Positions 8,448 to 51,099 of a stretch of 59,413 nt of DNA are shown in pieces. Below the pieces are notes generated by a model. The model saw only the letters and a list, made by a program, of their open reading frames with translations, did no database searches and was not told the DNA's origin. The stretch's first letter is position 1. The number at the start of each line of letters is the position of its first letter. The stretch spans positions 1 through 59,413 of the forward strand of contig NW_005434526.1 in NCBI RefSeq assembly GCF_000315625.1, in the 5' to 3' direction. The translations under genes were made by a program, and so were the position numbers. The DNA comes from Guillardia theta CCMP2712 (lineage: Eukaryota; Protista; Cryptophyta).

Positions 8448-11400
8448 ATGGTCGGTCATGCGCAGGAGGGGGTCGGCTGCTTTAGCTTCTTCTCGAGCAA
8501 GAGGGTATCCCCGGAGCAGGACGGAGCTCAGGCGACGCACTCTTCAACCAACTTTGAGGAGGCGCAAGCAAGGATCGCCGAGCTGGAGGCGGAGCTCAGG
8601 ACCCTGTCGGGGAGGGGCGCAGAGATGGAGATGATGAAGAGCAGGAGCGTGGAGCTTGAGGAGGAGAACAGAGCCTTAGTCGCGAAGAACCGTGAGCTCG
8701 GCGACAAGATCCGCTCCCTGTCTGAAACAGTCAAAGACCCTCTCAGTCCGGCAGCTCCTCAGCAGTCTCCCCAACTACCTTCCCAGCAGCATCCCCAGCC
8801 TCCGCCTCAACAGAATGCAGAGGACATCTTGAAAGTCTGGAAGCTGCCGGCAGAAGACACGAGGAAGCTCGATGACCTGCTGAGGGCCGTCGGCGAGCCT
8901 GACAAGCAGCAGTTGCTTGCGAGCGAGCTCCAGATCTCTCTGGGAGTGGGAAGGGTGCTGGACCTTTTGTCTCCAGGAGCCGGGGACTCGCTCGAGAGCG
9001 TGGAGAGGAAGGTTGCTCGAGAGTGGGAGCTTGTACACAAGTCCAACGTCCTCTCGGAGATGAGAATCGAGCGGGTCGTGGCTGAGTGCATCCCCGGAGG
9101 GAGTGTAGAGGCACCTCTTGCCGCCCTCCGTGCCATGTCGTCGGACTCCCTCGCCGAACTGTGCAGAACGAAGATAGCTGGAAGGCTGCTGGAGGCGTTC
9201 TCTACGGTCCCAGAGTCTCATGGAGGTCGGATAGCGCACAGCCCGAGCGCGAACAACAGCAAGTTCTCGCTGAACGAGACGAGGCTGGGCAACGAGAGCC
9301 TGCGGGAGGCAGTCTACGGAGGGATCGACGAGTTCTACGGAGGGCTGATCGAGAGGATCGGGTTGCCGCAGCTGAACCTGATGAAGGGGCTGCAGGAGGA
9401 TCACTGCAGAGGGGAGGACGCGGACCAGGAGTTTGCAACCAGCAACTACAGCATCAAGACGACCTCCAGGAAGGAATGGCTGGCAGTGACTGATGCCGAC
9501 GTGCGGCGAGAACTCTCTGTACCCCCGAGGGTCATCAGGGACGTGGACGAGCTCATGCAAGCTCCCCTCGCCATCAAGGCGAAACTCCTGAGAGAGGAGA
9601 TCCTTGCCCTGCAGCTGTACACAGGTGAGACGCCAGTTGTGGGTGGGTGGGTGGGTGGGTGGGTGAGTGAGTGAGTGAGAACAAGGGAGTAAGAGAAGGA
9701 GCGGGGAAGCAGGAGGTAGTGAAAGGGGAGGAGGAGGAGGAGAAAGTTGTGGTGCTGGTGGTGGTTCTGGAAGAGGAGGAAGGAGGACAAGAAGGAGAAC
9801 AAGGAGGAGGAGGAGGAGGAGGATAAGGTCGACCGGGATGCCTGAGGTTTGACTTGGCAGGCCCCATGTACTACAAGTACAACTTCGCTCTGCGAGCCCC
9901 GAGTGCCGCGGTCAACATGTACACGACGACGATCCACTGCATCGTCAGCGGGCTAGTCAAACTGTCTCGCCATACGTCCCTCATCGGTAGCAGGCAGGTT
10001 CTCAGGGGACTGAAGGGGCTCAGGCTGCCCGATAGCTTCTTGCGGGAGGACGAGTATGGAGTGTCGGGAGGAGTAGAGTACGGGCTACTGAGCACAACGA
10101 CAGACATCAGGACAGCCATCCAGTACGCAGGAGATGAAGGGGATCCGATCGTGTTCGAGATCGGCTGCGGAGCGATAGATCGCGGAGCCAGCCTTGAGTT
10201 CCTGTCCCAGTACCCCGAGGAAAAGGAAATCTTGTATCCTCCACTGTCATACTTGGAGGTCATGCGGCAGCCGAGGTATAAGGAAGTAGGAGGGCAGCGA
10301 GTGAGAGTGCTGGAGCTGAAGATCAACGCAAACTTGACGAATCTTACGATCGAGGACTTTGTTGGTAAGCGCAAGCAGCTGCACATTTCGCTCATGGAGA
10401 ACTTGCTGCGAGAGGTTGAGAGGGACGTCAAGGACTGGGAGTCGAGGATCCAGACCCGCCTCAAGACAGCATCGTGGGATGCCTCGCAGAAGTATGACGT
10501 GCAGCTGACCCAGTCGATCATCGACGAGTGTAAGGAGCTGGTGGAGGAGAGCAGGGGGAAGACCGCAGAGTGGTACAACGACGACTGCCGCTACAAGGAT
10601 GCGATCGAGCAGTCAAGCATGACACGGGAGATGGCGATCAACAAGCTCAGGTTCTGGGTGGAAGACACGATAGGTGACGAGCAATGCTCCGACTTGTCTG
10701 AAGAGACAATGAAGACAGTCCACTGGAAGTCCATGTCAAATCTCACCCGAAAGATCAACAGCAGGGCGGCCAAAGACTCAGAACGACGAGATCTGAGCAG
10801 AAAGCTGTGTCAGATGTACGGCATGCGGGTCACCGACGAGGACGCCGACGGCGATCCGCCTGTCGTCATGGCGGTCTTCCGAGGGCAGGGCGAGCTGATT
10901 CCCTTCCTCAAGACAGCAGGGTGCGATGTCAATGCGCTCCTGAGCAACGGCAGGACGGCGTTGCACGTCGCTGCCATGCTGGGGATGAAGGGATGCCTGA
11001 CGGAGCTCATGGTGGCAGGAGCCGACGTGTGGGCGGTGGATGACTATGAGTGGACTTGCGCGCATGTCGCGAGCTCTGAGGGGCACGTGGAGATGGTGAA
11101 GTTCCTCAAGGAGCAGTGTGGGCAGGAGATCTTGGTGCAGAAAGAGCAGAACGGGTTGACATGCGCCCATCTCGCGAGCAAAGGAGGATACTTGGAGGTT
11201 CTCAAGTACATCAAGAAAGTCTGCGGCAAGAACGTCTTCGTGGAGAAGGACGATAATGGTGAGACTTGTGCTCACAAGGCAAGCAAGGAGGGTTTCCTGG
11301 AGTTGGTGAAGTTCTTCAAGGAAGAGTGTGGGATAGAGTCTCTCATGCAGGAAGACAAGGCTGGCTGGACGTGCGCACATGCAGCAAGTCTGAACGGGCA

Positions 11401-12462
11401 CTTGGAGGTTGTCAAGTACCTCAAGAAGATTTGCGGCAAGGAAATTCTCCTCAAGAAGGAAGGGGACGGTAGGAGCTGCGTGCAGATTGCGAGTGGTGAA
11501 GGCTACCTCGACGTCGTCCAGTACGTCGTTGGCATTTGCGGGAAGGACCTGCTGGTGCAACAAGACTCTCTCGGCTGGACGTGTGCGATCGAGGCGAGCA
11601 AGGGGGGATACTTAGACGTCCTTGAGTACATCAGAGATCAGTGTGGCAGTGACGTGCTGAGTGTGCCGGAGAAGGAAGGCTGGACCTGCGCGCATGCTGC
11701 TGCAAGTGAAGGACGTCGGCAGGTGGTCGAGTTCCTCAGGAAAGAGCTCGGGCGCCCTTGCCTGCAGCAGATAGATCAGGAAGGAGAGACGTGCGCGCAT
11801 GCTGCGAGCGCCGGAGGCCACATGGAAGTTCTGGAGTACATCACAGCAGAGCTGGGCAAGGAGGTGCTGCAGGAGAAGAACAACGACGGAGAGACGTGTG
11901 CGCATGTGGCGAGCAAGAAAGGGCGAATTGAGGTTGTCAAGTACATCCAAGGAGAGTGCGGTAAGGATGCGCTGCTGGAAGAGAACAAGTCAGGACATAC
12001 TTGCGTGCTGAGTGCGAGCGAAGGAGGTCAGGTGGAGGTGTTGAAGTACCTGAGAGAGCAGTTCGGAACAGAGACTCTGCTGGCCAAGTGCAAGAATGGG
12101 GGGACATGCGCGCATGCTGCAAGCGCGGGAGGTCGAGTCAAGGTGCTCAAGTACATCACGGCAGAGCTGGGCAACGAGGTGCTGCTGGAGAAGAACAACG
12201 ACGGGGAAACATGCGCACATGTGGCGAGCAGGGAAGGGCGGGTGAGAGTCTTGAAGCTGATACAGAAGGCTTGCGGCAAGGACGTCTTGCTCCTTGTGGA
12301 CAACGACGGCAACAGCTGCGCACATGCTGCGAAGAATGCGAAGCGTCGGAAGATCCTTCAGTATCTTAAAGATCTTGGGGTGTGGATGAATGGCGAGGAA
12401 CAGAGCGAAAAGAGCAAAGCTGGAAGGGAGGACGAAGGAGAGAAGACAGTGGGTGATGACGT

Positions 12463-12552
<90 letters not shown>

Positions 12553-12679
12553 AGAGGAGGAGGAAGAGGAGGAGGAGGAGGAGGAGAGGGAGGAGGAGGA
12601 GAGGGAGGAGCAAGAGGAGGTAGACGGCCAAAACGACGGCAAGGTAGACGAGGAGGTACAAGAACAAGAAGAACAATAA
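8448..12679 (+). CDS. Coiled-coil + R-S-E-clade mono-ADP-ribosyltransferase + ~15 ankyrin repeats + poly-acidic tail; exons 8448..9624 and 9861..12679
   Basis: Intron 9625..9860 (acag|gtgaga...ttggcag|gcc) joins LQLYTG-PMYYKYN. ART motifs VLRG (R), LLSTTTD (STT) and QYPEEKEILYPP (ExE) are followed by repeated GxTCAHxASxxGxLEVxKY ankyrin units. Confidence 0.88.
12464..12550 (+). repeat. (GAC)29 coding microsatellite (poly-Asp), followed by GAG-rich poly-Glu
   Basis: Read directly; in frame within the ART-ankyrin CDS. Confidence 0.9.
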
Positions 12680-35481: not shown

Positions 35482-36776
35482 AAAGCTCGCTGACCTGGTG
35501 AGTCCAAGAAATCAGATGCCATAGATCGCATTGCTCTGAATCAAATTCTTTATCCTCCTGCCGAAAAATGATCGTGCGACTCGCTGTCGCATGATCATCT
35601 TTGAGCATCAACCTCTCTGAGCAGTACTTTCCTTTGTGCCCAATTCTTACATCCTACCTATTCGTATCTTGTGCAACGATTGTTTTCGTCACAGTGCATC
35701 ACTCGTTTCTACCATCGATGTCGCATCACAACTCACGACGAGGTCCAACACAAATTCAAGGAAGGTAAAATGCTGTGGAGAAGATTTCCAAACACCATTT
35801 TTTTTCTATCCTATCATTCTTTCAACTTATGAACGACTTCTCTCTCGTTGTCTTGATGTCTCTTGCATTCTCTGAGCCGTCCTGCGTTTCACTCATATTC
35901 CTCTGTGCTAGACGTTCGCATGCTAGTTGTCATTCTCTCCTCCTCCCTAACCTTCCACATGTTTCGCACGTGTCGCCCCCCTCCTTCATCTTATCTCTGC
36001 CACAAGTCTCCGACTCATTTCGCTGCTCGTCTCCCTTCCTTCCATCGCTCCCGCCATCCCCCATCGCGTCTCCAACCATATCTCACGTTGCGTTCCCCCA
36101 TTCAACCCCTACCCCCCCCTGCGGTAAATATTCTTGTACCCGACCTTCACCCCCTTGTAGTACCAATACTGTACCCCACCACCCCACCCCTACCCCCTCT
36201 GCGCCCTTCGTGTCCCCTCGGAGAGTCCAGCACACATCACATCCAGTACGGTAGGGGCAAAAGGCTCTACCACTGAGTACCGGTACTTGTTGTTTGAGAT
36301 TACGGATATGAGGGGTGGGTGGTGGGTCCTTTTCGTACAATTGGTAGTTCCTTTCCGCCGCCCCTTGGATACGACCCCCGCGAGTCTACCTACCCACCAT
36401 CTCGAAATTGGACCCCTCGTTAAACTAGGAATCTACCCCCTCGATTGACCCTCACAGTGAGTTTTCGGACCCCACCCCATACCAATCAGTCTCGTGGTAT
36501 ATCTCGCAGGACTCGGAAGTTCCAGTGGACCCAGTTTCAGTGCTTTTAATTTCAAATCTTCATTGATTCAATTTGACATGGAAGGGAAATGAACTAGGCG
36601 AATGGTTGACGTGTGAAAACTCCAAAAATCAATCTCGAGATATTTCAGCTCTGGCGCGCGCCCGTTGATTCACTGCTGCCGTGACCGGGCCCGGGCCCGG
36701 AGCCGGCGAATTCTGCGGCGCCTTCTTAGTATTGGGTCTTAGTGGAGATGAGGGTTGCAAACAGACGGGCGCAGGC

Positions 36777-39191: not shown

Positions 39192-39294
39192 GGACTCGAT
39201 TAAAAAACACTAAAAAATGAACAGAACCTTTTAACTTTTACAGGTTTCTTGAGTAACCGTTTAACCGTTTTCTTGAGTTTAAAAAACGCTTTTA

Positions 39295-40090
39295 GGGACC
39301 CTGTGAAGAGAAGTAGTTTCGATGGGGTTTCTGATTACACACACCTACCACCACCTGTATTTGGGACAAAATTTGGATTTTTTTAAGATGTTGCAACAAT
39401 GTTTTTAAAGTACCCACCCTCATCTCCTCCACGATAGCACGGGTGGGGGGGACTCTCCCTTCCCCTCCTCCTCCCTCCCCAAGGTCCGCGTCTGCGTCTC
39501 AGTCCTCGAGGCTTTCTTCCACCTCCCCCAGGAGGCTGCTGCAAGGCGCCTGGTAAGTCTTGAAGCTCTTGTCATTACTCTGCCTTCTTCACTCCTCCCC
39601 CCCTGCCGCTCCTCTCAGTCTGTGCGCGATGGCAAGAGCCTGCTGCTGACCCAGCGCCTGTGCCGCAGGGCGTGTCGCTGACCAGCCTCAAGGCGGCCTG
39701 CCGCAAGATCGGCATTAAGCGCTGGCCCTACCGCCGCTGGCCGGCAGCTGACCTCGAGCATGACGCACACGCCCCTTCATCGCGTGAGACTGCAGCGTCA
39801 TCCAGCGGCCCTCAGGGCATGGCGGCAGCAGTGCCATCGCCTCCCGTACCGGACGAGGAGGCTGCCAGCTCCTCCCTTGCGCTCGCTGAGGGTGAGCGGC
39901 GGAGCTCACCGGCATCGGAAGCGCCGGCCGTGACATGTGGGGAGAGAAGAGACGGATGGTTGGCTGACGTGGATGAGCTGGGAGGGTACGGCGAGTGGAT
40001 GTCATGGTGGATAGACTGCGACGACGATGCCGTCTGAAAGCACCTGAGGCTCATGAATACGTACAATCATGAGACCTTGCCGTCTGAAAG
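39295..40090 (+). repeat. Left arm of a large inverted repeat (partner ~50120..51085)
   Basis: ccctgtgaagagaagt.gtttcgatgggg...aagatgttgcaacaatgtttttaaagtacccaccc...acgatagca, plus the RWP-RK gene, match the reverse complement of 50120..51085. Confidence 0.85.
39451..40037 (+). pseudogene. 5'-truncated RWP-RK copy (type C); intron 39553..39668
   Basis: Matches the array gene from DSPFPSSSLPK onward but lacks the ATG and MAIPSAVLVSPRPR. Confidence 0.7.
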
Positions 40091-40717: not shown

Positions 40718-41322
40718 TCATCCAGCTCGCACTGCTCGTACCACGCCGACCAGACGTCCTCCTCCTCCCCGGGCTGCTCCAGGCTCTTTCAGCCATCCAT
40801 CGCCATCGCTATGGTGTGCTTCCTGGAGGCGGCAGGGCAAGGGAAGAGGCTGCGAGGGGAAGCTGTTTAGGTCTTGACGGACTGCGAGCTGATGCAAGTC
40901 TGGCTCGTTGTCGTCTACAATCGGAGGAGCAGGCACAGCCTCGTGTTCGTGACTGGAAGGGAAATGCAGGTCTGTGCCGTTGGGATGTTGCCAGCGGCGG
41001 TAGGGCCAGCGCTTGATGCCGATCTTGCGGCAGGCTGCCTTGAGGCTGGTCAGCGACACGCCCTGCGGCACAGGCGCTGGGTTAGCAGCAGGCTCTTGCC
41101 ATCGCGCACAGACTTAGAGGAGCGGCAGGGTGGGAGGAGTGAAGAAGGCAGAGTAATGACAAGAGCTTCAAGACTTACCAGGCGCCTTGCGGCAGCCTCC
41201 TGGGGGAGGTGGAAGAAAGCCTCGAGGACGGAGACGCAGACGCGGACCTTGGGGAGGGAGGAGGAGGGGAAGGGAGAGTCGCGGGGGCGCGGGGAGACGA
41301 GGACAGCAGAGGGGATCGCCAT
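40718..41322 (-). CDS. RWP-RK transcription factor (type C core, alternative C-terminus); intron 41063..41178
   Basis: MAIPSAVLVSPRPR...FFHLPQEAAARRL|GVSLTSLKAACRKIGIKRWPYRRW; canonical gtaagt...gcag intron. Confidence 0.85.
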
Positions 41323-41620
41323 GGACGGGGATAGGCGAGCAACCCCATCGAAAAGATCTATTTTCGTATCTACGCACGGCGCTCTCGTTAGCTCCTGGCT
41401 AGCATTGACTATCAACTCACGGCTTTCCACAGGGAATAGCAACTCTGACTGTTTCATTTCACACAAACGCAACGTTAGGGTGGTGCGTTTGTCTAGCACC
41501 TTGCGGAAGAGAGCTCCTTTCGTTCCCCGTCATGGCTCGAGGATCCAGCCCCCTCGACTGTCAGCTCAATTTTACCCCGCAACTCTCACCGGCCGCTCAC
41601 CCCTCCCTCCCTCCCTCCCC

Positions 41621-41854
41621 ATGCTCCCATCCCCCTGCCTCCCGCCTACCATCTCAAGCCCCGACTCTCCTGACCAGCAGGTCGAGTCCTTTCTCTCCTC
41701 CTTCCGCGCCATGTACGGCTCCTGCCCCTCCGTCTGCCCGGTCTCCGACGCCTCCAACCTGGTCACCGACTTCACTGCCCTAGAGCGACCAGCGGGCATG
41801 GTGCTGGACTGGAAGAAGGACGAGCGGCTGCGAGGTCTTGAGACCCGAGCGTGA
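41621..41854 (+). CDS. Small hypothetical protein, divergent from RWP-RK, repeated in each array unit (copies end at 43904 and 46029)
   Basis: MLPSPCLPPTISSPDSPDQQVESFLSSFRAMYGSCPSVCP...LDWKKDERLRGLETRA*; GC3-rich codons; open in all three units. Confidence 0.45.
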   Translation: MLPSPCLPPTISSPDSPDQQVESFLSSFRAMYGSCPSVCPVSDASNLVTDFTALERPAGMVLDWKKDERLRGLETRA

Positions 41855-42565
41855 GGGAGACAGGCGAGTAGGACTAGCAGTCTTGATGTGTAAAGTAACC
41901 CTGTGTGTGTAATATAAGCCTTTGTACGACCACCTGCCTCCTGTGTGAGCCTGTCCTAGACGTGGCTTGAGAGTATTGAGGTGAATCAGCCTGTGATCAG
42001 GCAGCTCGGGGGATGAAGCGAGCTGACTGCTGCTGATCTGTCTGCCTTGGTATCAGTATCGATGCGGCATGCTCTCAGTGCGACGCCATGCTCTGGGTGT
42101 CTCGTGCGTGACAGGGCAGGGATAGGGTTGAGGCAGCCGCCAGACCTTGACAACCCGCCTGAGACCTGCTTGATCGGTTGCGTTGATCCATGACGTCATT
42201 CCTCCAGGCGTCACGATCTGCCGGTATCACGATCGGACCGCAAACGACATTCTCACAAGATCGCAGAGCGAGGCAAGCAGACAAACTCCACCGGCATCTC
42301 TACGATACCTCCAGCGGCATAGCCTGCTGTGACGCATCTGTACTGATAGAGGTACAAGTCAGATCTTTGTCACGTCACATGTTTGAGCTTGTTCTTTTAA
42401 TGCAATGTAACATTGAAATATTAAATAGGGCAGTGTAATGTCGTTGAGGCAATGCACCATAGTGATGATGCTGTTGAGTACATGCGCGAATGTATCGTCC
42501 GATCGTTTGCTACCTTCACACCATGATCCGTACCTCCAACCTTCGAAAACCAGTTTCTTGTCGTG

Positions 42566-42749
42566 CGTCTTCATGAGCCTCAGGTGCTTTCAGACGGCAA
42601 GGTCTGATGATTGTACGTCTTCATGAGCCTCAGGTGCTTTCAGACGGCAAGGTCTGATGATTGTACGTCTTCATGAGCCTCAGGTGCTTTCAGACGGCAA
42701 GGTCTGATGATTGTACGTCTTCATGAGCCTCAGGTGCTTTCAGACGGCA
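42566..42749. repeat. 50-bp minisatellite, ~3.7 copies
   Basis: Unit cgtcttcatgagcctcaggtgctttcagacggcaaggtctgatgattgta, head-to-tail, no spacers. Confidence 0.95.
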
Positions 42750-43368
42750 TCGTCGTCGCAGTCTATGCACCACGACATCCACTCGCCGTACCCTCCCAGC
42801 TCATCCATGTCAGCCAACCATCCGTCACTTCTCTCCCCACATGTCACGGCCGGCGCTTCCGATGCCGGTGAGCTCCGCCGCTCACCCTCAGCGAGCGCAA
42901 GGGAGGAGCTGGCAGCATCCTCGTCCGGTACGGGAGGCGATGGCACTGCTGCCGCCATGCCCTGAGGGCCGCTGCATGACGCTGCAGTCTCACGCGATGA
43001 AGGAGCGTGTGCGTCATGCTCGAGGTCAGCTGCCGGCCAGCGGCGGTAGGGCCAGCGCTTGATGCCGATCTTGCGGCAGGCTGCCTTGAGGCTGGTCAGC
43101 GACACGACCTGCGACACAGGCGCTGGGTTAGCAGCAGGCTCTTGCCATCGCGCACAGACTGAGAGGAGCGGCAGGGGGGGAAGGATGAAGAAGGCAGAGT
43201 AATGACAAGAGCATCAAGACTTACCAGGCGCCTTGCGGCAGCCTCCTGGGGGAGGTGGAAGAAAGCCTCGAGGACGGAGACGCAGATGCGGACCTTGGGG
43301 AGGGAGGAGGAGGGGAAGGGAGAGTCGCGGGGGCGCGGGGAGACGAGGACAGCAGAGGGGGTCGCCAT
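42740..43368 (-). CDS. RWP-RK transcription factor (type C), one intron
   Basis: MATPSAVLVSPRPR...AARRL|VVSLTSLKAACRKIGIKRWPYRRW...WMSWCIDCDDDAV*. Confidence 0.85.
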
Positions 43369-44640
43369 GGACGGGGTTAGGGGGCTCGAGCAACCCCATC
43401 GAAAAGATCTATTTTCGTATCTACGCACGGCGCTCTCGTTAGCTCCTGTCTAGCATTGACTATCAACTCACGGCTTTCCACAGGGAATAGCAACTCTGAC
43501 TGTTTCATTTCACACAAACGCAACGTTAGGTGGTGCGTTTGTCTAGCACCTTGCGGAAGAGAGCTCCTTTCGTTCCCCGTCATGGCTCGAGGATCCAGCC
43601 CCCGCGACTGTCAGCTCAATTTTACCCCGCAACTCTCACCGGCCGCTCACCCCTCCCTCCCTCCCTCCCCATGCTCCCATCCCCCTGCCTCCCGCCTACC
43701 ATCTCAAGCCCCTACTCTCCTGACCAGCAGGTCGAGTCCTTTCTCTCCTCCTTCCGCGCCATGTACGGCTCCTGCCCCTCCGTCTGCCCGGTCTCCGACG
43801 CCTCCAACCTGGTCACCGACTTCACTGCCCTATATCGACCAGCGGGCACAATGCTGGACTGGAAGAAGGACGAGCGGCTGCGAGGTCTTGAGACCCGAGC
43901 GTGAGGGAGACAGGCGGGTAGGACTAGCAGTCTTGATGTGTATAGTAACCCCGTGTGTAATATAAGCCTTTGTACGACCACCTGCCTCCTGTGAGAGCCT
44001 GTCCTAGACATGGCTTGAGAGTATTGAGGTGAATCAGCCTGTGATCAGGCAGCTCGGGGGATGAAGCGAGCTGACTGCTGCTGATCTGTCTGCCTTGGTA
44101 TCAGTATCGATGCGGCATGCTCTCAGTGCGACGCCATGCTCTGAGGTCCCGTGCATGACAGGGCAGGGATAGGGTTGAGGCAGCCGCCAGACCTTGACGA
44201 CCCGCCTGAGACCTGCTCGATAACTGCTGGCGATGGAGCTTCGAGCGATCGGTTGCGTTGATCCATGACGTCATTCCTCCAGGCGTCACGATCTGCCGGT
44301 ATCACGATCGGACCGCAAACGACATTCTCACAAGATCGCAGAGCGAGGCAAGCAGACAAACTCCACCGGCATCTCTACGATACCTCCAGCGGCATAGCCT
44401 GCTGTGACGCATCTGTACTGATAGAGGTACAAGTCAGATCTTTGTCACGTCACATGTTTGAGCTTGTTCTTTTAATGCAATGTAACATTGAAATATTAAA
44501 TAGGGCAGTGTAATGTCGTTGAGGCAATGCACCATAGTGATGATGCTGTTGAGTACATGCGCGAATGTATCGTCCGATCGTTTGCTACCTTCACACCATG
44601 ATCCGTACCTCCAACCTTCGAAAACCAGTTTCTTGTCGTG

Positions 44641-44874
44641 CGTCTTCATGAGCCTCAGGTGCTTTCAGACGGCAAGGTCTGATGATTGTACGTCTTCATG
44701 AGCCTCAGGTGCTTTCAGACGGCAAGGTCTGATGATTGTACGTCTTCATGAGCCTCAGGTGCTTTCAGACGGCAAGGTCTGATGATTGTACGTCTTCATG
44801 AGCCTCAGGTGCTTTCAGACGGCAAGGTCTGATGATTGTACGTCTTCATGAGCCTCAGGTGCTTTCAGACGGCA
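44641..44874. repeat. 50-bp minisatellite, ~4.7 copies
   Basis: Same unit as 42566..42749. Confidence 0.95.
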
Positions 44875-45493
44875 TCGTCGTCGCAGTCTATGCACCACGA
44901 CATCCACTCGCCGTACCCTCCCAGCTCGTCCATGTCAGCCAACCATCCGTCACTTCTCTCCCCACATGTCACGGCCGGCGCTTCCGATGCCGGTGAGCTC
45001 CGCCGCTCACCCTCAGCGAGCGCAAGGGAGGAGCTGGCAGCATCCTCGTCCGGTACGGGAGGCGATGGCACTGCTGCCGCCATGCCCTGAGGGCCGCTGG
45101 ATGACGCTGCAGCCTCACGCGATGAAGGGGTGTGTGCGTCATGCTCGAGGTCAGCTGCCGGCCAGCGGCGGTAGGGCCAGCGCTTGATGCCGATCTTGCG
45201 GCAGGCTGCCTTGAGGCTGGTCAGCGACACGACCTGCGACACAGGCGCTGGGTTAGCAGCAGGCTCTTGCCATCGCGCACAGACTGAGAGGAGCGGCAGG
45301 GGGGGAAGGATGAAGAAGGCAGAGTAATGACAAGAGCATCAAGACTTACCAGGCGCCTTGCGGCAGCCTCCTGGGGGAGGTGGAAGAAAGCCTCGAGGAC
45401 GGAGACGCAGATGCGGACCTTGGGGAGGGAGGAGGAGGGGAAGGGAGAGTCGCGGGGGCGCGGGGAGACGAGGACAGCAGAGGGGGTCGCCAT
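44865..45493 (-). CDS. RWP-RK transcription factor (type C), one intron
   Basis: Near-identical to 42740..43368 at +2125 bp. Confidence 0.85.
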
Positions 45494-46060
45494 GGACGGG
45501 GTTAGGGGGCTCGAGCAACCCCATCGAAAAGATCTATTTTCGTATCTACGCACGGCGCTCTCGTTAGCTCCTGTCTAGCATTGACTATCAACTCACGGCT
45601 TTCCACAGGGAATAGCAACTCTGACTGTTTCATTTCACACAAACGCAACGTTAGGTGGTGCGTTTGTCTAGCACCTTGCGGAAGAGAGCTCCTTTCGTTC
45701 CCCGTCATGGCTCGAGGATCCAGCCCCCGCGACTGTCAGCTCAATTTTACCCCGCAACTCTCACCGGCCGCTCACCCCTCCCTCCCTCCCTCCCCATGCT
45801 CCCATCCCCCTGCCTCCCGCCTACCATCTCAAGCCCCTACTCTCCTGACCAGCAGGTCGAGTCCTTTCTCTCCTCCTTCCGCGCCATGTACGGCTCCTGC
45901 CCCTCCGTCTGCCCGGTCTCCGACGCCTCCAACCTGGTCACCGACTTCACTGCCCTATATCGACCAGCGGGCACAATGCTGGACTGGAAGAAGGACGAGC
46001 GGCTGCGAGGTCTTGAGACCCGAGCGTGAGGGAGACAGGCGGGTAGGACTAGCAGTCTTG

Positions 46061-47611
46061 ATGTACTGCGTTCCCTGCAGGGCGACGCCGTTCCAGGACT
46101 GGGAGCTGAACGATCTGTCCTACCACTGGACAATGCCCTGCACCCGTGTCCTGAATGCCCGGCCGATACCCTGTGGGGTGCTCCAGAGGGGGAGGTACAC
46201 GGGATACGCGACGGAGATGGGGGTGGACTGCCCGGCCGTCTGCGATTCGGGGTTCACGCTGGAGTTTGTCACGGAGCAGATCGAGGTAGAGTACTGGGAG
46301 CCCGGGACGCAGCCGGGATCGGTCACTAAGGGTTTCTTCCAGTTTAACCGCTCCCACTGCAGGCCCTGTGTGGATTCCGGGGTGCAGATCGTGAATGGAT
46401 CCTTCAATGATGGTGTGTTCTCCCAGGATTGCGTCTTCACCTGCAATACCGGCTTCGTCCCTGTGTTCAGCTCGGATTACCTCTGCCCGACGGGGGTGGT
46501 GCATGTCCCCCCGTACCAATGCCACTTCTGCCCGCTGATCCAGTGCCAGGCCGGCGAGTTCCAGGTGGATTGCCCTCCCGACGCCTACTGTGTCCCCTGC
46601 CCCGCCATCCCAAACGGTTCCCACATGGAGTACTACCTCCCCGGCGGATACCAAGACCCTGCATCGTGCCCAAAGCGATGCATGCCCCAGTATTGGAGGC
46701 CCGACGCCGCCTCGAACTGCACCGCCTGCACCACGGAGGTTGCGCTGGCCTGCAACTACACCGTAGAGTTCATGAGGCCATGCGAAGAGTTCAGGGATGC
46801 GGCGTGCGTGGCCTGCAGCGATAGTTGCGATCCTGGCTTCTACCTGTCCGCCAATTGCAGCCGGTACAGCAATATCGCTTGCGAGCCGTGCGCATCCGCC
46901 GTGCCGCTGAATTCGAGGTATATACGGGGGTGCACCTATGAATGCCTCCCAGATTATGTCCCACATAACGCTTCTTATTGCGGGTATTGCGATCCGTATC
47001 GCCTGTGTGGCGTGGGTTACTATGTGGATGATTGCAATCTGGCGAACGCGTTCACCGGCTGCTCTCCGTGCAAGAATGGACTCGCTGTAAACACCACCGT
47101 GGTGTACCTCACGGCGGGCGACGCCTACAGCCCCTACTCGTGCTCCTGGAAATGCCCGGATGGCATGGTGCTGGGGAGGAACGCGAGCGGGGCGGTGGAT
47201 TGTGTGATCCTCCCGCCTGCAGTGGCGGCCACGAAGGAGCAGCTCTCGACCCCTCCCCCCTATTGCTCCCCCGGGACCTACAGGGCCTCGACGCTGGAGT
47301 GCCTGCCCTGCCAGGTGAACATTCCCAACGAGTTTGCGATCTTCACGGATGCCTGCCGCTGGGTGTGTGTGGGAGGGAGGATCGCCGTGCTGGACCCTGT
47401 TCAGGGGAGGCTGACCTGCATGGCCTATGAGGATTACATCTCGATCATGCAGAACACGAGGAGGGTGTTGATCCAGAACCCACTCAACGATACCTACCAG
47501 GATCACACCTTAGGGAATGGGGAGAGGGACCTGCTGTACGTGTCGCTGGCCTTTGTCACCGTGGTGGTAGTCGTAGGAACCCTGAATTATTTCTGTGGCG
47601 CCTTGAGATAA
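46061..47611 (+). CDS. Cysteine-rich (TNFR/furin/EGF-like repeats) membrane glycoprotein, probably 5'-truncated
   Basis: Repeated CxxxCxxG[FY] and CxPC units (DCVFTCNTGF, SCSWKCPDG, CDPGFYLSANCSRYSNIACEPC), many NxS/T sequons, C-terminal TM LLYVSLAFVTVVVVVGTLNYF; no signal peptide. Confidence 0.8.
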   Translation: MYCVPCRATPFQDWELNDLSYHWTMPCTRVLNARPIPCGVLQRGRYTGYATEMGVDCPAVCDSGFTLEFVTEQIEVEYWEPGTQPGSVTKGFFQFNRSHCRPCVDSGVQIVNGSFNDGVFSQDCVFTCNTGFVPVFSSDYLCPTGVVHVPPYQCHFCPLIQCQAGEFQVDCPPDAYCVPCPAIPNGSHMEYYLPGGYQDPASCPKRCMPQYWRPDAASNCTACTTEVALACNYTVEFMRPCEEFRDAACVACSDSCDPGFYLSANCSRYSNIACEPCASAVPLNSRYIRGCTYECLPDYVPHNASYCGYCDPYRLCGVGYYVDDCNLANAFTGCSPCKNGLAVNTTVVYLTAGDAYSPYSCSWKCPDGMVLGRNASGAVDCVILPPAVAATKEQLSTPPPYCSPGTYRASTLECLPCQVNIPNEFAIFTDACRWVCVGGRIAVLDPVQGRLTCMAYEDYISIMQNTRRVLIQNPLNDTYQDHTLGNGERDLLYVSLAFVTVVVVVGTLNYFCGALR

Positions 47612-47760
47612 ACCCCTTTAAAACGCCCAGGATCCGTGGGTGGGGTCACCGAGCTTTGCACCCCGTGGTATCCCACGCGTCGGGTGGTCCGTAACGGGTG
47701 GTCCGCAATCCGTAAAATTATCGCAGCTCCGGAAGCCTTCGATTATCCGCAAACCTCCGT

Positions 47761-48963
47761 ATGTCTTACTGGAGTGACGAAGAGGATAACAACCGTGAGG
47801 ACACACAGTCCCCACCCCCGGTACCCACCGCCTCCGGGAGCTCCTCCCTCGCGGTGGCCCCTCGCCCCTTACAGCGCGCGATGGCGAGGGTGAGGTCCCC
47901 TCAGCGCTTTGCCTCCGGATATGACTCCGACACCGCGATAGAGGATAGCGGCGAGGAGGAGGATGAGCAGGAGATCAAGAGCTCCTACAACCTGAGGGAG
48001 GGAGTCGACGGCAGGATGTACTATGGCAAGGCCAGTGATGAGATGCCGGGCTACGACGAGAGCATGGATCCCGAGTTCGATCCCGTCGCATTCGCCGAGC
48101 AGGAGATGAAGTCCAAGGACATCGAAGACGGCTATGATTCCATGGGCAGTGACGACCTGGACATGCTGGATGTTGAGATACGGGAGGATGAACTCGACAT
48201 CGTCCGTGACGTGAAGAAGGGAGATCTCGTCAGCTTCTGCAAGGGCTTCACCCCCGCCACCGTCTTCGAGGGCGTCATAAGGCTGAAGTGCGTGGAGGAG
48301 AGCGAGAAGGCGGGCTTTGGCGTCTGTGTCTGTGGTTCTGTCCCGACTTACTACTGCTGTGTCTGCAACATGATCACGACCTGCAAGTGCTGTAGTCACA
48401 AGGGTGGCTGCTCGATGTGTGGCAGCGATGACTCAGAGCTTGTCAGTGTGAGGCTGGACAATCCCGAGACGATCGGCAGTTTCATACATGACATCGACAG
48501 CACGGAGGTGAGGTGCAAGGCCAGGACTCTCAATGACCGGCTGGATGACTGCATGATGATCTTTGACAGTGTCAGGGACCGTGTTAGCTTCTTGGTCTAT
48601 CTTTACGAGACCGTGTTTGACGGCATCCTCACGCCCTCCCGGAATATCTGCACGATATGCTTCGATCGATCGGCCCGTGTCATCTATCATCCCTGTGGCC
48701 ATCTCGCTGCGTGCTCGACTTGCCATCTGCGTATGGGCTCCAATCATCCATGCCATATGTGCCGGACCATGGTGACACGGTCCTACGTGTACATGAATGT
48801 CCATCTCCGTGGGGTTGTGGAGCGCAGCAGCATGAGATGTGATTTTGACAAGTATATCGCTATTGAGAGAATGCTGGATTACAACACGCCGGATGCGCTC
48901 AAGCGGTATATCATTGCCCATGCGAAGAAGACGATGCATGAGCCGATCGAGATCTCGGACTGA
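47761..48963 (+). CDS. IAP-type C3HC4 RING finger protein (putative E3 ligase) with acidic N-terminus
   Basis: CTICFDRSARVIYHPCGHLAACSTCHLRMGSNHPCHMCR; second Cys cluster CVCGS...CCVCNMITTCKCCSHKGGCSMC; intronless 400 aa. Confidence 0.85.
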   Translation: MSYWSDEEDNNREDTQSPPPVPTASGSSSLAVAPRPLQRAMARVRSPQRFASGYDSDTAIEDSGEEEDEQEIKSSYNLREGVDGRMYYGKASDEMPGYDESMDPEFDPVAFAEQEMKSKDIEDGYDSMGSDDLDMLDVEIREDELDIVRDVKKGDLVSFCKGFTPATVFEGVIRLKCVEESEKAGFGVCVCGSVPTYYCCVCNMITTCKCCSHKGGCSMCGSDDSELVSVRLDNPETIGSFIHDIDSTEVRCKARTLNDRLDDCMMIFDSVRDRVSFLVYLYETVFDGILTPSRNICTICFDRSARVIYHPCGHLAACSTCHLRMGSNHPCHMCRTMVTRSYVYMNVHLRGVVERSSMRCDFDKYIAIERMLDYNTPDALKRYIIAHAKKTMHEPIEISD

Positions 48964-49044
48964 TCCATTTCGTTTGAATTGTGTGTGTGTGCGAAAATAA
49001 ATGCACTCGTTGCGAGCCCGGTTGGCATACGCCCTCCATCCCCC

Positions 49045-49356
49045 ATGCACTCCCACGCCTGCTTTTGCTGTCGGTGGTTCGATACGGATGTCCCATGTCC
49101 GTATCAGATGCGGCGACCCTTGACAATGGACGAGATGCTGAGGGCCGGCTTCGACGTCACGGCCGAGGCATTCCATGCCTGCAACCTGGAGAGGGTCCGT
49201 GGTTTGATCTCCCAGGGCCTCATCCCGGGGGTGACATCCTGGTGTTCCCGATGCAAGAGGATCACCCCTCTGGTCCCGATGGATTGCGAGGATGCCGGTG
49301 TGGCCATGGTGGATATCATACGGAGGCACGAGTCCATGGACTCGTGGCTGCATTAA
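49045..49356 (+). CDS. Small Cys/His-containing hypothetical protein
   Basis: ATG at 49045; HACFCC...WCSRCK motifs; codon style like the neighbouring insert ORFs. Confidence 0.55.
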   Translation: MHSHACFCCRWFDTDVPCPYQMRRPLTMDEMLRAGFDVTAEAFHACNLERVRGLISQGLIPGVTSWCSRCKRITPLVPMDCEDAGVAMVDIIRRHESMDSWLH

Positions 49357-50143
49357 AGACACCGTGGGCGGGTGGGTTCAGAAGCCTTTGTACGACCACC
49401 TGCCTCCTGTGAGAGCCTGTCCTAGACATGGCTTGAGAGTATTGAGGTGAATCAGCCTGTGATCAGGCAGCTCGGGGGATGAAGCGAGCTGACTGCTGCT
49501 GATCTGTCTGCCTTGGTATCAGTATCGATGCGGCATGCTCTCAGTGCGATGCCATGCTCTGAGGTCTCGTGCATGACAGGGCAGGGATAGGGTTGAGGCA
49601 GCCGCCAGACCTTGACGACCCGCCTGAGACCTGCTCGATAACTGCTGGCGATGGAGCTTCGAGCGATCGGTTGCGTTGATCCATGACGTCATTCCTCCAG
49701 GCGTCACGATCTGCCGGTATCACGATCGGACCGCAAACGACATTCTCACAAGATCGCAGAGCGAGGCAAGCAGACAAACTCCACCGGCATCTCTACGATA
49801 CCTCCAGCGGCATAGCCTGCTGTGACGCATCTGTACTGATAGAGGTACAAGTCAGATCTTTGTCACGTCACATGTTTGAGCTTGTTCTTTTAATGCAATG
49901 TAACATTGAAATATTAAATAGGGCAGTGTTATGTCGTTGAGGCAATGCACCATAGTGATGATGCTGTTGAGTACATGCGCGAATGTATCGTCCGATCGTT
50001 TGCTACCTTCACACCATGATCCGTACCTCCAACCTTCGAGAGCCATGACTTCTGTGAAGTAGCTTGTCGTTGCCATCCAAGGCACAAAACTTGCAGGTCG
50101 CCCAAGAGGCTTGGCTGTGCGTCTTCATGAGCCTCAGGTGCTT

Positions 50144-50772
50144 TCAGACGGCATCGTCGTCGCAGTCTATGCACCATGACATCCACTCGCCGTACCCTCC
50201 CAGCTCGTCCACGTCAGCCAACCATCCGTCACTTCTCTCCCCACATGTCACGGCCGGCGCTTCCGATGCCGGTGAGCTCCGCCGCTCACCCTCAGCGAGC
50301 GCAAGGGAGGAGCTGGCAGCATCCTCGTCCGGTACGGGAGGCGATGGCACTGCTGCCGCCATGCCCTGAGGGCCGCTGGATGACGCTGCAGCCTCACGCG
50401 ATGAAGGGGTGTGTGCGTCATGCTCGAGGTCAGCTGCCGGCCAGCGGCGGTAGGGCCAGCGCTTGATGCCGATCTTGCGGCAGGCTGCCTTGAGGCTGGT
50501 CAGCGACACGACCTGCGGCACAGGCGCTGGGTTAGCAGCAGGCTCTTGCCATCGCGCACAGACTGAGAGGAGCGGCAGGGGGGGAGGAGTGAAGAAGGCA
50601 GAGTAATGACAAGAGCTTCAAGACTTACCAGGCGCCTTGCGGCAGCCTCCTGGGGGAGGTGGAAGAAAGCCTCGAGGACGGAGACGCAGATGCGGACCTT
50701 GGGGAGGGAGGAGGAGGGGAAGGGAGAGTCGCGGGGGCGCGGGGAGACGAGGACAGCAGAGGGGATCGCCAT
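50144..50772 (-). CDS. RWP-RK transcription factor (type C), one intron
   Basis: MAIPSAVLVSPRPR...AARRL|VVSLTSLKAACRKIGIKRWPYRRW...CDDDAV*. Confidence 0.85.
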
Positions 50773-51099
50773 GGCCGCGGCGAGAAGGGATGAGGGCAGG
50801 CGCCCCTCGAAAGAAGAAGTGTTCCATGGGGATTCTGCTAGAACGTCTCCCCCTCACCCCTGCTATCGTAGGATATTCATTGGGAGAGATGAAGGGTGGG
50901 TACTTTAAAAACATTGTTGCAACATCTTTGTACCCCGCGAAACTACTCTTCTTCGATGCAGATCACACAAAAACTCACCCCTGACACCCGTCCCTGCTAC
51001 CCAATTTAGTCGCAAACAAAGGTGGTGGTAGGGCTGTGTAATCAACAACCCCATCGAAACCACTTCTCTTCACAGGGCACCTTAAACGGGTTACTAGCC

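What the first reader, a model, noticed from the sequence alone, without database searches (positions are those of the whole stretch)
46065..49381. Virus-like three-gene fragment captured inside one unit of a TF tandem array, with both junctions readable
Seen: the sister unit at 43932-43970 reads cttgatgt-[gtatagtaaccccgtgtgtaatat]-aagcctttg. Here the 24 bp are replaced by 3317 bp holding three intact, co-oriented, intronless ORFs, in a genome where most long genes are intron-rich. There is no TSD, terminal repeat or mobility gene. Known: Cys-rich membrane proteins and RING ligases are frequent in large eukaryotic dsDNA viruses, and a small deletion without TSD typifies end-joining repair. Inference: recent double-strand-break capture of DNA from an unknown large virus or a resident endogenous viral region. 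Speculatively, the inverted-repeat-bounded array could act as a trap or small-RNA memory locus.
Basis: partly seen in the sequence, partly recalled or inferred. Interest (0 to 1): 0.85.

Follow-up and report, generated by a model that had tools for sequence, protein, structure and literature searches.

The report
Fresh mirusvirus DNA patch in alga
A 3.3 kb internal piece of a large virus, likely a mirusvirus, sits as one nearly silent copy in a gene array of the alga Guillardia theta, likely pasted in during DNA-break repair, and a 98%-identical sequence that runs on past both ends occurs in a freshwater sample, pointing to a virus that likely still infects these algae.

Summary
The insert is real: 3317 bp at 46065-49381 replace 24 bp of an RWP-RK array unit in Guillardia theta, with no TSD or TIR. 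Correction: ORF1 is not intact. It is the C-terminal part of a protein of over 1012 aa, cut at the junction and opened by a host ATG. A metagenome contig (L001) is colinear with the whole insert (74% nt) and encodes, 1.9 kb further on, a 1230-aa protein whose G. theta homologue resembles HK97-type capsids. Contigs of freshwater run X6 match the insert at 98.3% and continue as L001-like sequence exactly past both junctions, giving 0 and 1 nt of microhomology. Differences are mostly synonymous (29 of 35), so the copy has barely decayed. It is single-copy, no intact donor is seen in culture contigs, and 4 of 19.8 million RNA reads map to it. Best reading: recent end-joining capture of a cryptophyte mirusvirus fragment. 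Mirusvirus remnants in this assembly are published; the near-identical wild counterpart and base-level junctions were not found in my searches. Trap or small-RNA memory: no support.

The parts
46065..49381 (+). Captured viral fragment, 3317 bp, replacing 24 bp of one array unit
   Evidence: junction arithmetic; colinear with L001 at 74% nt; X6 contigs 98.3%, continuing as virus past both ends
46061..47611 (+). ORF1: C-terminal 516 aa of a large Cys-rich, C-terminally membrane-anchored (predicted) viral protein; 5'-truncated, start codon made of host letters
   Evidence: 78% to L001 residues 498-1012; L001 frame open at 5' end; relatives 1314-1579 aa; TNFR_c6 only E=0.029
47761..48963 (+). ORF2: full-length 400-aa acidic/Cys-cluster/C3HC4 RING protein, likely E3 ubiquitin ligase
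   Evidence: Pfam zf-C3HC4_3 E=2.4e-10; 65% to L001; 3 hits among 1687 candidates
49045..49356 (+). ORF3: full-length 103-aa Cys/His-containing protein of no known family
   Evidence: 75% to the syntenic L001 ORF; only itself found; no convincing Pfam or NCBIfam hit
46064..46065 (.). Left junction, 0 nt microhomology; break lies inside the viral ORF1
   Evidence: X6 contig begins at 46065 with 295 other letters upstream whose last 20 equal L001
49381..49382 (.). Right junction, 1 nt (A) shared; break lies just before the next viral ORF
   Evidence: X6 contig ends at 49382 with 79 further letters homologous to the next L001 ORF
43940..43963 (+). 24-bp empty-site sequence in sister unit 2
   Evidence: also seen as a joined form in X1 and X2 contigs
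40990..50780 (-). Host tandem array of about 2.1 kb units, each with an intron-split RWP-RK gene on the minus strand
   Evidence: self-BLAST 89-98%; Pfam RWP-RK
45796..46029 (+). 77-aa host-unit ORF of unknown status ending 35 bp before the insert
   Evidence: open in units 1-3; no Pfam hit
39290..40090 (+).
   Evidence: 79-98% identity in three blocks

Best explanation
The insert is a single, barely decayed, internal fragment of a large cryptophyte-associated DNA virus, likely a mirusvirus, that was likely ligated into a chromosome break in one RWP-RK array unit by end joining. Steps: (1, inferred) virus DNA was present in the nucleus of an ancestor of the cultured strain during infection or persistence; (2, inferred) a break in the unit lost 24 bp; (3, shown as outcome) a piece cut inside one viral gene and just before another was joined with 0 and 1 nt of overlap, no duplication and no mobility gene; (4, shown) the piece is now single-copy, present in runs of 2011, 2021 and 2026, and nearly silent in the one RNA run laid; (5, inferred) it is a passenger without function.
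For: L001 is colinear over 46065-49358 and is 93% coding over its first 13.7 kb. Its 1230-aa ORF has a 93%-identical N-terminal copy in G. theta whose nearest Atlas clusters are phage capsids, feature score 0.96-0.97, and 7 of 10 structure rows carry a capsid name. X6 contigs cover 2704 of 3317 bp with 46 differences in 2759 aligned letters and run on as L001-like sequence at both junctions. 29 of 35 coding differences are synonymous; 9 of 10 assigned to the window lineage are, against 0.725 nonsynonymous expected under neutrality, P=7e-5. Depth 70-76 on the insert against 224-239 on shared flanks in X1. PMC10827195 lists mirusvirus MCP, Triplex2 and maturation markers in this species' assembly; PMC12768974 lists C3HC4 RING proteins as mirusvirus core functions.
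Against: The capsid call rests on one Atlas search of a homologue, with a weak model (pLDDT 0.44, TM 0.39-0.48 by query); my own fold failed (pLDDT 30) and Pfam, PHROGs, NCBIfam and PDB sequence searches gave nothing for it. No portal, triplex, terminase or polymerase was identified in the 14.4 kb held. The capsid gene is linked to L001 (74% nt), not shown linked to the 98% X6 sequence. X6 contigs are shallow (depth 3-6) and one has a locally divergent 117-letter end at 48342. Unitigs overlap the host by 30 letters, one short of the tool's bridging rule, X1 may be the source of the assembly, and X2's shown piece stops at 49356. The outgroup for polarising changes is distant. End joining is inferred from the outcome only.
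Confidence: 0.85

Rival explanations
1. Same capture, but the donor is not a mirusvirus: a nucleocytovirus, a jumbo phage or another Duplodnaviria lineage.
For: Atlas hits are all phage clusters; RING and Cys-rich proteins are common in nucleocytoviruses (own knowledge); no mirusvirus reference could be compared directly; motif search of the PMC12768974 supplements found nothing.
Against: The neighbour capsid looks HK97-like, not double jelly-roll; it is 1230 aa against 278-579 aa for the hits; G. theta carries 93% and 98% copies of it and its neighbour, which fits a eukaryotic virus; Zhao et al. report mirusvirus MCPs in this assembly.
Confidence: 0.08
2. The piece was copied or moved from a longer near-identical endogenous viral region or episome that is still in this genome.
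For: G. theta holds other related fragments: GUITHDRAFT_117713 (42% to ORF1) and the capsid pair on a 214-kb scaffold; one 32-letter stretch in ORF2 is shared with another place in X1.
Against: X1 unitigs cross both junctions without a branch, the insert is single-copy in X1, X2 and X11, and 1 of 1643 X11 reads is only partly laid. A resident donor lost since cannot be excluded; contigs drop rare variants.
Confidence: 0.05
3. The array is a trap or small-RNA memory locus that stores viral DNA for defence.
For: The site is in a repeat flanked by an inverted copy; the insert is nearly silent.
Against: One insertion in four units; the wild host-like contig in X6 has the empty site; other viral fragments lie on other scaffolds; the inverted copy is a paralogous gene.
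Confidence: 0.04
4. Assembly chimera of host and a co-cultured virus.
For: No long read or PCR spans the junctions here; the array is a near-identical repeat.
Against: Junction-crossing unitigs in X1 (both) and X2 (left), one-to-three depth ratio in three runs over 15 years, no viral continuation in culture contigs.
Confidence: 0.02

Closest known systems
Mirusvirus remnants in eukaryote assemblies, clade E03 of cryptophytes (PMC10827195)
   Same: Same host assembly is listed with MCP, Triplex2 and maturation markers; HK97-like capsid gene next to homologues of the insert's genes.
   Different: This fragment has no hallmark gene, so a marker screen would miss it; both junctions are resolved against an empty sister unit and a 98% wild counterpart. 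Membership of E03 could not be tested.
Mirusviricota (PMC10132985, PMC12768974)
   Same: HK97-type capsid (predicted), eukaryotic host, C3HC4 RING gene, freshwater occurrence.
   Different: The L001 capsid is 1230 aa, suggesting a larger insertion than the small tower described for marine mirusviruses; held genes are intron-free; triplex, portal and terminase not seen in 14.4 kb.
Persistent mirusvirus episomes and integrant of thraustochytrids (described in PMC12768974 passages; PMC12606086 seen as listing only)
   Same: A nuclear, persistent virus would supply DNA for capture.
   Different: Those are whole genomes; this is a 3.3 kb dead-end fragment.
Foreign-DNA capture at double-strand breaks by non-homologous end joining, as for organellar inserts (recalled, no call); short prasinovirus inserts in Ostreococcus (10.1101/2025.09.17.676765 passages)
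   Same: No TSD, small target deletion, little or no microhomology.
   Different: Donor is a large virus and the piece carries two whole genes; the Ostreococcus inserts are 36-339 bp.
Polinton-like viruses of cryptophytes (PMC12220804 passages)
   Same: Viral DNA in cryptophyte nuclear genomes.
   Different: No terminal repeats, TSD, integrase or jelly-roll capsid here.

Membership tests
Mirusviricota (donor) | HK97-fold major capsid protein | tested here: met
   On the relative L001, through its 93% G. theta homologue: Atlas features 0.96-0.97 to phage capsid clusters, structure TM 0.39-0.48 by query on a weak model. One source; own fold failed.
Mirusviricota (donor) | Tower insertion in the capsid A-domain | tested here: inconclusive
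   1230 aa against 278-579 aa for phage hits fits a large insertion; no usable model.
Mirusviricota (donor) | Triplex 1/2, portal, terminase, maturation protease | tested here: inconclusive
   Only 14.4 kb held; the 309-aa neighbour gave a pLDDT 42 model and no significant fold match.
Mirusviricota (donor) | Unicellular eukaryote host | tested here: met
   Insert and 93-98% copies of L001 capsid and neighbour are in G. theta.
Mirusviricota (donor) | Placement among mirusvirus MCPs or clade E03 in a tree | not testable with these tools
   No reference mirusvirus sequences or HMMs on hand; supplement motif search empty.
Nucleocytoviricota (donor) | Double jelly-roll capsid | tested here: inconclusive
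   The capsid-like gene found is HK97-like; no jelly-roll capsid family hit among 10 L001 proteins, but most of the genome is unseen.
DNA transposon or Polinton-like virus insertion | Terminal inverted repeats and target-site duplication | tested here: not met
   TIR length 0, no TSD of 2-11 bp, 24 bp deleted; ends fall inside continuous viral sequence.
End-joining capture at a break | Small target deletion, 0-4 nt microhomology, no TSD, arbitrary donor ends | tested here: met
   24 bp lost; 0 and 1 nt overlap; flank similarity at chance level, 13% of random 30-mers score as high.
Small-RNA memory locus | Small RNAs from the insert; repeated captures at the locus | not testable with these tools
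   No small-RNA run listed; one insertion seen.

The most novel reading that the evidence does not exclude
An uncultured, intron-poor mirusvirus with an unusually large capsid protein lives as a persistent, roughly one-copy nuclear resident of wild Guillardia-type cryptophytes, and host repair repeatedly uses its DNA as break filler, scattering fragments of one viral neighbourhood over several chromosomes; the cultured strain lost the virus but kept the patches. In X6 the virus-like contigs (depth 3-6) co-occur with an empty-site host array contig (depth 16.8), a ratio like that of single-copy DNA to the array in culture. This would name a culturable host for a living cryptophyte mirusvirus.
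Probability: 0.3. Interest if true: 0.78.

Novelty: new member of a known kind. Interest (0 to 1): 0.52.

Why it matters
It ties a cultured model cryptophyte to a virus lineage still present in the wild at 98% identity, which gives a concrete host, sample type and probe sequence for isolating a cryptophyte mirusvirus. It is also an unusually clean record of how non-integrating large-virus genes enter a eukaryote genome: empty site, filled site and donor continuation are all readable to the base. It shows that hallmark-free viral pieces sit in the G. theta annotation as 'hypothetical' host genes, one of them as a host-virus chimeric model.

Tried and rejected
No whole genome was held, so other G. 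theta copies were seen only as proteins. Viral contigs: 7 scans (ORF2, ORF1, alignment A3, capsid whole and part, P0019, alignment A4) found no relative; genome contigs: 1 scan, none. AlphaFold of the capsid N-terminus: pLDDT 30, not searched. 309-aa neighbour: Atlas gave F-actin capping protein at 0.91, taken as a weak lead and rejected; model pLDDT 42, Foldseek 0 hits at E<=0.001, best VIA Z 6.1, uninformative. PDB sequence searches: nothing useful. Tetranucleotide test: insert 0.098 but GC-rich array windows up to 0.09, not discriminating. Homeology-guided joining at the left junction: chance level. No RNA holder listed. X7 holds 5 short pieces at 90-99%; not used for habitat. Antisense ORFs of 305-306 aa over the insert have no Pfam hit and are treated as shadows. 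Literature: 6 searches; none listed a paper on this locus, 0 papers hold GUITHDRAFT_147299; nothing usable on RNAi genes in G. theta. Earlier scan notes: 3 look-ups, all empty. Unseen supplements that may bear on novelty: three large tables and one scanned PDF of PMC12768974, and those of the bioRxiv preprints.
Full report
Observation. The window is from Guillardia theta: ORF1 matches GUITHDRAFT_147299 at 100% on a 144-kb scaffold. A tandem array of about 2.1 kb units spans 40990-50780, with an inverted paralogue at 39290-40090. Each unit has an intron-split RWP-RK gene on the minus strand (exon 2 E=4.3e-9) and a 77-aa plus-strand ORF of unknown status. In unit 3, 3317 bp (46065-49381) stand where unit 2 has 24 bp and unit 1 has 26 bp; there is no TSD and no terminal repeat. 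Units 2 and 3 are identical over 904 bp to the left and differ at 3 of 637 bp to the right.

ORF1 is not intact. Its ATG and the following base are host letters. It aligns at 78% to residues 498-1012 of a frame in L001 that is still open at the contig's start, and the three best full-length relatives among 66 hits are 1442, 1314 and 1579 aa, matched at their C-terminal ends. The family is Cys-rich with a C-terminal hydrophobic anchor; one member has ephrin-receptor-like repeats (E=1e-8) and L001 has a weak galactose-binding-like hit (E=0.012), so a surface or envelope protein is likely (inference). The public gene model starts with the end of the host 77-aa ORF and continues in ORF1, an annotation chimera. 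ORF2 (RING) and ORF3 are full-length against L001.

The donor. It is colinear with the whole insert at 74% nucleotide identity, with no introns, and no other part of the window matches it. It is 93% coding over the first 13.7 kb by my ORF selection. 1.9 kb beyond the ORF3 homologue lies a 1230-aa ORF. G. theta has a 433-aa model 93% identical to its N-terminus and, two accession numbers away on the same 214-kb scaffold size, a 98% copy of its 309-aa neighbour. In the ESM Atlas the G. theta homologue is nearest to phage capsid clusters (features 0.96-0.97; 7 of 10 structure rows named capsid, TM 0.39-0.48 by query on a weak model). An HK97-type capsid in a virus of a unicellular eukaryote points to Mirusviricota (PMC10132985, passages). 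PMC10827195 (passages, part 2 of 5 of the text, two supplement rows) lists this species' assembly with MCP, Triplex2 and maturation markers in clade E03, and PMC12768974 (passages) names C3HC4 RING proteins among core functions. Against: my folds failed or were uninformative, profile libraries gave no capsid hit, and no second hallmark gene was identified.

A near-identical wild counterpart. Of 24 runs listed, 7 hold part of the insert. Freshwater run X6 has 14 contigs at 95% or better; the 8 shown cover 2704 of 3317 bp with 46 differences in 2759 aligned letters and one 6-letter insertion. One begins exactly at 46065 with 295 non-host letters before it, whose last 20 equal L001 at that place. 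Another ends at 49382 with 79 letters homologous to the next L001 ORF. So the donor runs on at both ends, the junctions are fixed independently of the sister unit, and the overlap is 0 nt left and 1 nt right. Four other X6 loose ends lie inside the insert; the one at 48342 reads as a locally divergent allele, the others are likely unrelated short matches. X6 also has an empty-site contig of the host array with 27 other letters between the flanks, so a host-like organism and the virus-like DNA share the sample.

Age. I classed the 38 differences that one search listed (of 46 counted in the pieces): 35 are coding, 29 synonymous and 6 not. With L001 as outgroup, 10 coding changes fall on the window's lineage, 9 of them synonymous; neutral decay would give about 72% nonsynonymous changes (P=7e-5). 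The divergence therefore arose in functioning viruses, and the copy has hardly aged since capture. The outgroup is distant and X6 is shallow, so the polarity is rough.

Reality and state in culture. X1 unitigs span 46035-48171 and 48144-49411, each 30 letters into host flank (one short of the tool's bridging rule, as expected for 31-mers; X1 may be the assembly's source). Depth is 70-76 on the insert and 224-239 on shared flanks. X2 (2011) has one unitig 46035-49356 at depth 5.7, and raw reads of X11 (2026) cover all 30 bins at about a third of the flank depth. No viral continuation appears in these runs. In RNA run X10, 4 of 19.8 million reads read (6% of the run) lay on the stretch; no control gene was laid, so this shows near silence only loosely.

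Mechanism. Arbitrary donor ends, a 24-bp target loss, no duplication, 0-1 nt overlap, chance-level flank similarity and no recombinase are the signature of end-joining capture (established knowledge, recalled). The break and the nuclear presence of viral DNA are inferred. The piece is likely a passenger: ORF1 lacks its N-terminal half or more, and ORF2 and ORF3 keep their upstream DNA but are not evidently expressed. Nothing here supports a trap or memory role.

Verdict. Real, recent, single-copy viral capture; donor most likely a cryptophyte mirusvirus (0.85 for the whole reading). The kind is known and mirusvirus remnants in this assembly are published; six paper searches listed nothing on this locus or its wild counterpart. 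PMC12220804, 10.1101/2025.04.19.649669 and 10.1101/2025.09.17.676765 were seen as passages; other papers as listings only. Interest 0.52, mainly for the virus-host link.

Noticed in passing
L001 6731-10423 (-): Capsid-like ORF of 1230 aa, two to four times the length of the phage capsids it resembles; may carry a much larger tower than marine mirusviruses.
   Followed up: partly
L001 5331-13725: Further unannotated genes around the capsid: 227-aa coiled-coil protein (scaffold-like, a guess), 309-aa beta-rich protein conserved at 94-100% in four sequences, 348-aa hydrophobic protein, 90-aa Cys-rich protein.
   Followed up: partly
G. theta proteins P0010, P0012, P0005: Other fragments of related viruses on 214-kb and 244-kb scaffolds; the capsid pair could come from the same virus as this insert, since it lies only a few kb away in L001.
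   Followed up: partly
window 48142-48173: X1 unitigs break at a 32-letter stretch of ORF2 with higher depth (110), so another place in the run shares it; possibly a related viral RING gene.
   Followed up: no
window 46061-49382 in run X6: A freshwater run holds a diverged empty-site copy of the host array (depth 16.8) next to virus-like contigs (depth 3-6): a Guillardia-like alga may live there.
   Followed up: partly
window 45707-47611: The junction leaves one open frame of 634 aa from a host ATG through ORF1; the host part is a 127-aa frame in unit 2 and probably not a gene.
   Followed up: no
window 42563-42749 and 44638-44874: A 50-bp tandem repeat at the 3' end of the RWP-RK gene varies in copy number between units.
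   Followed up: no
window 9827-12679: 950-aa intron-free frame with ankyrin-like repeats (by eye) and an acidic tail; a host gene, showing that long exons occur here.
   Followed up: no
window 36040-36520: C-rich non-coding stretch with many short C runs that looks unlike its surroundings.
   Followed up: no
P0006: A Hanusia phi transcriptome protein is 48% identical to the C-terminal half of ORF1, so a related gene is transcribed in a sister cryptophyte culture.
   Followed up: no
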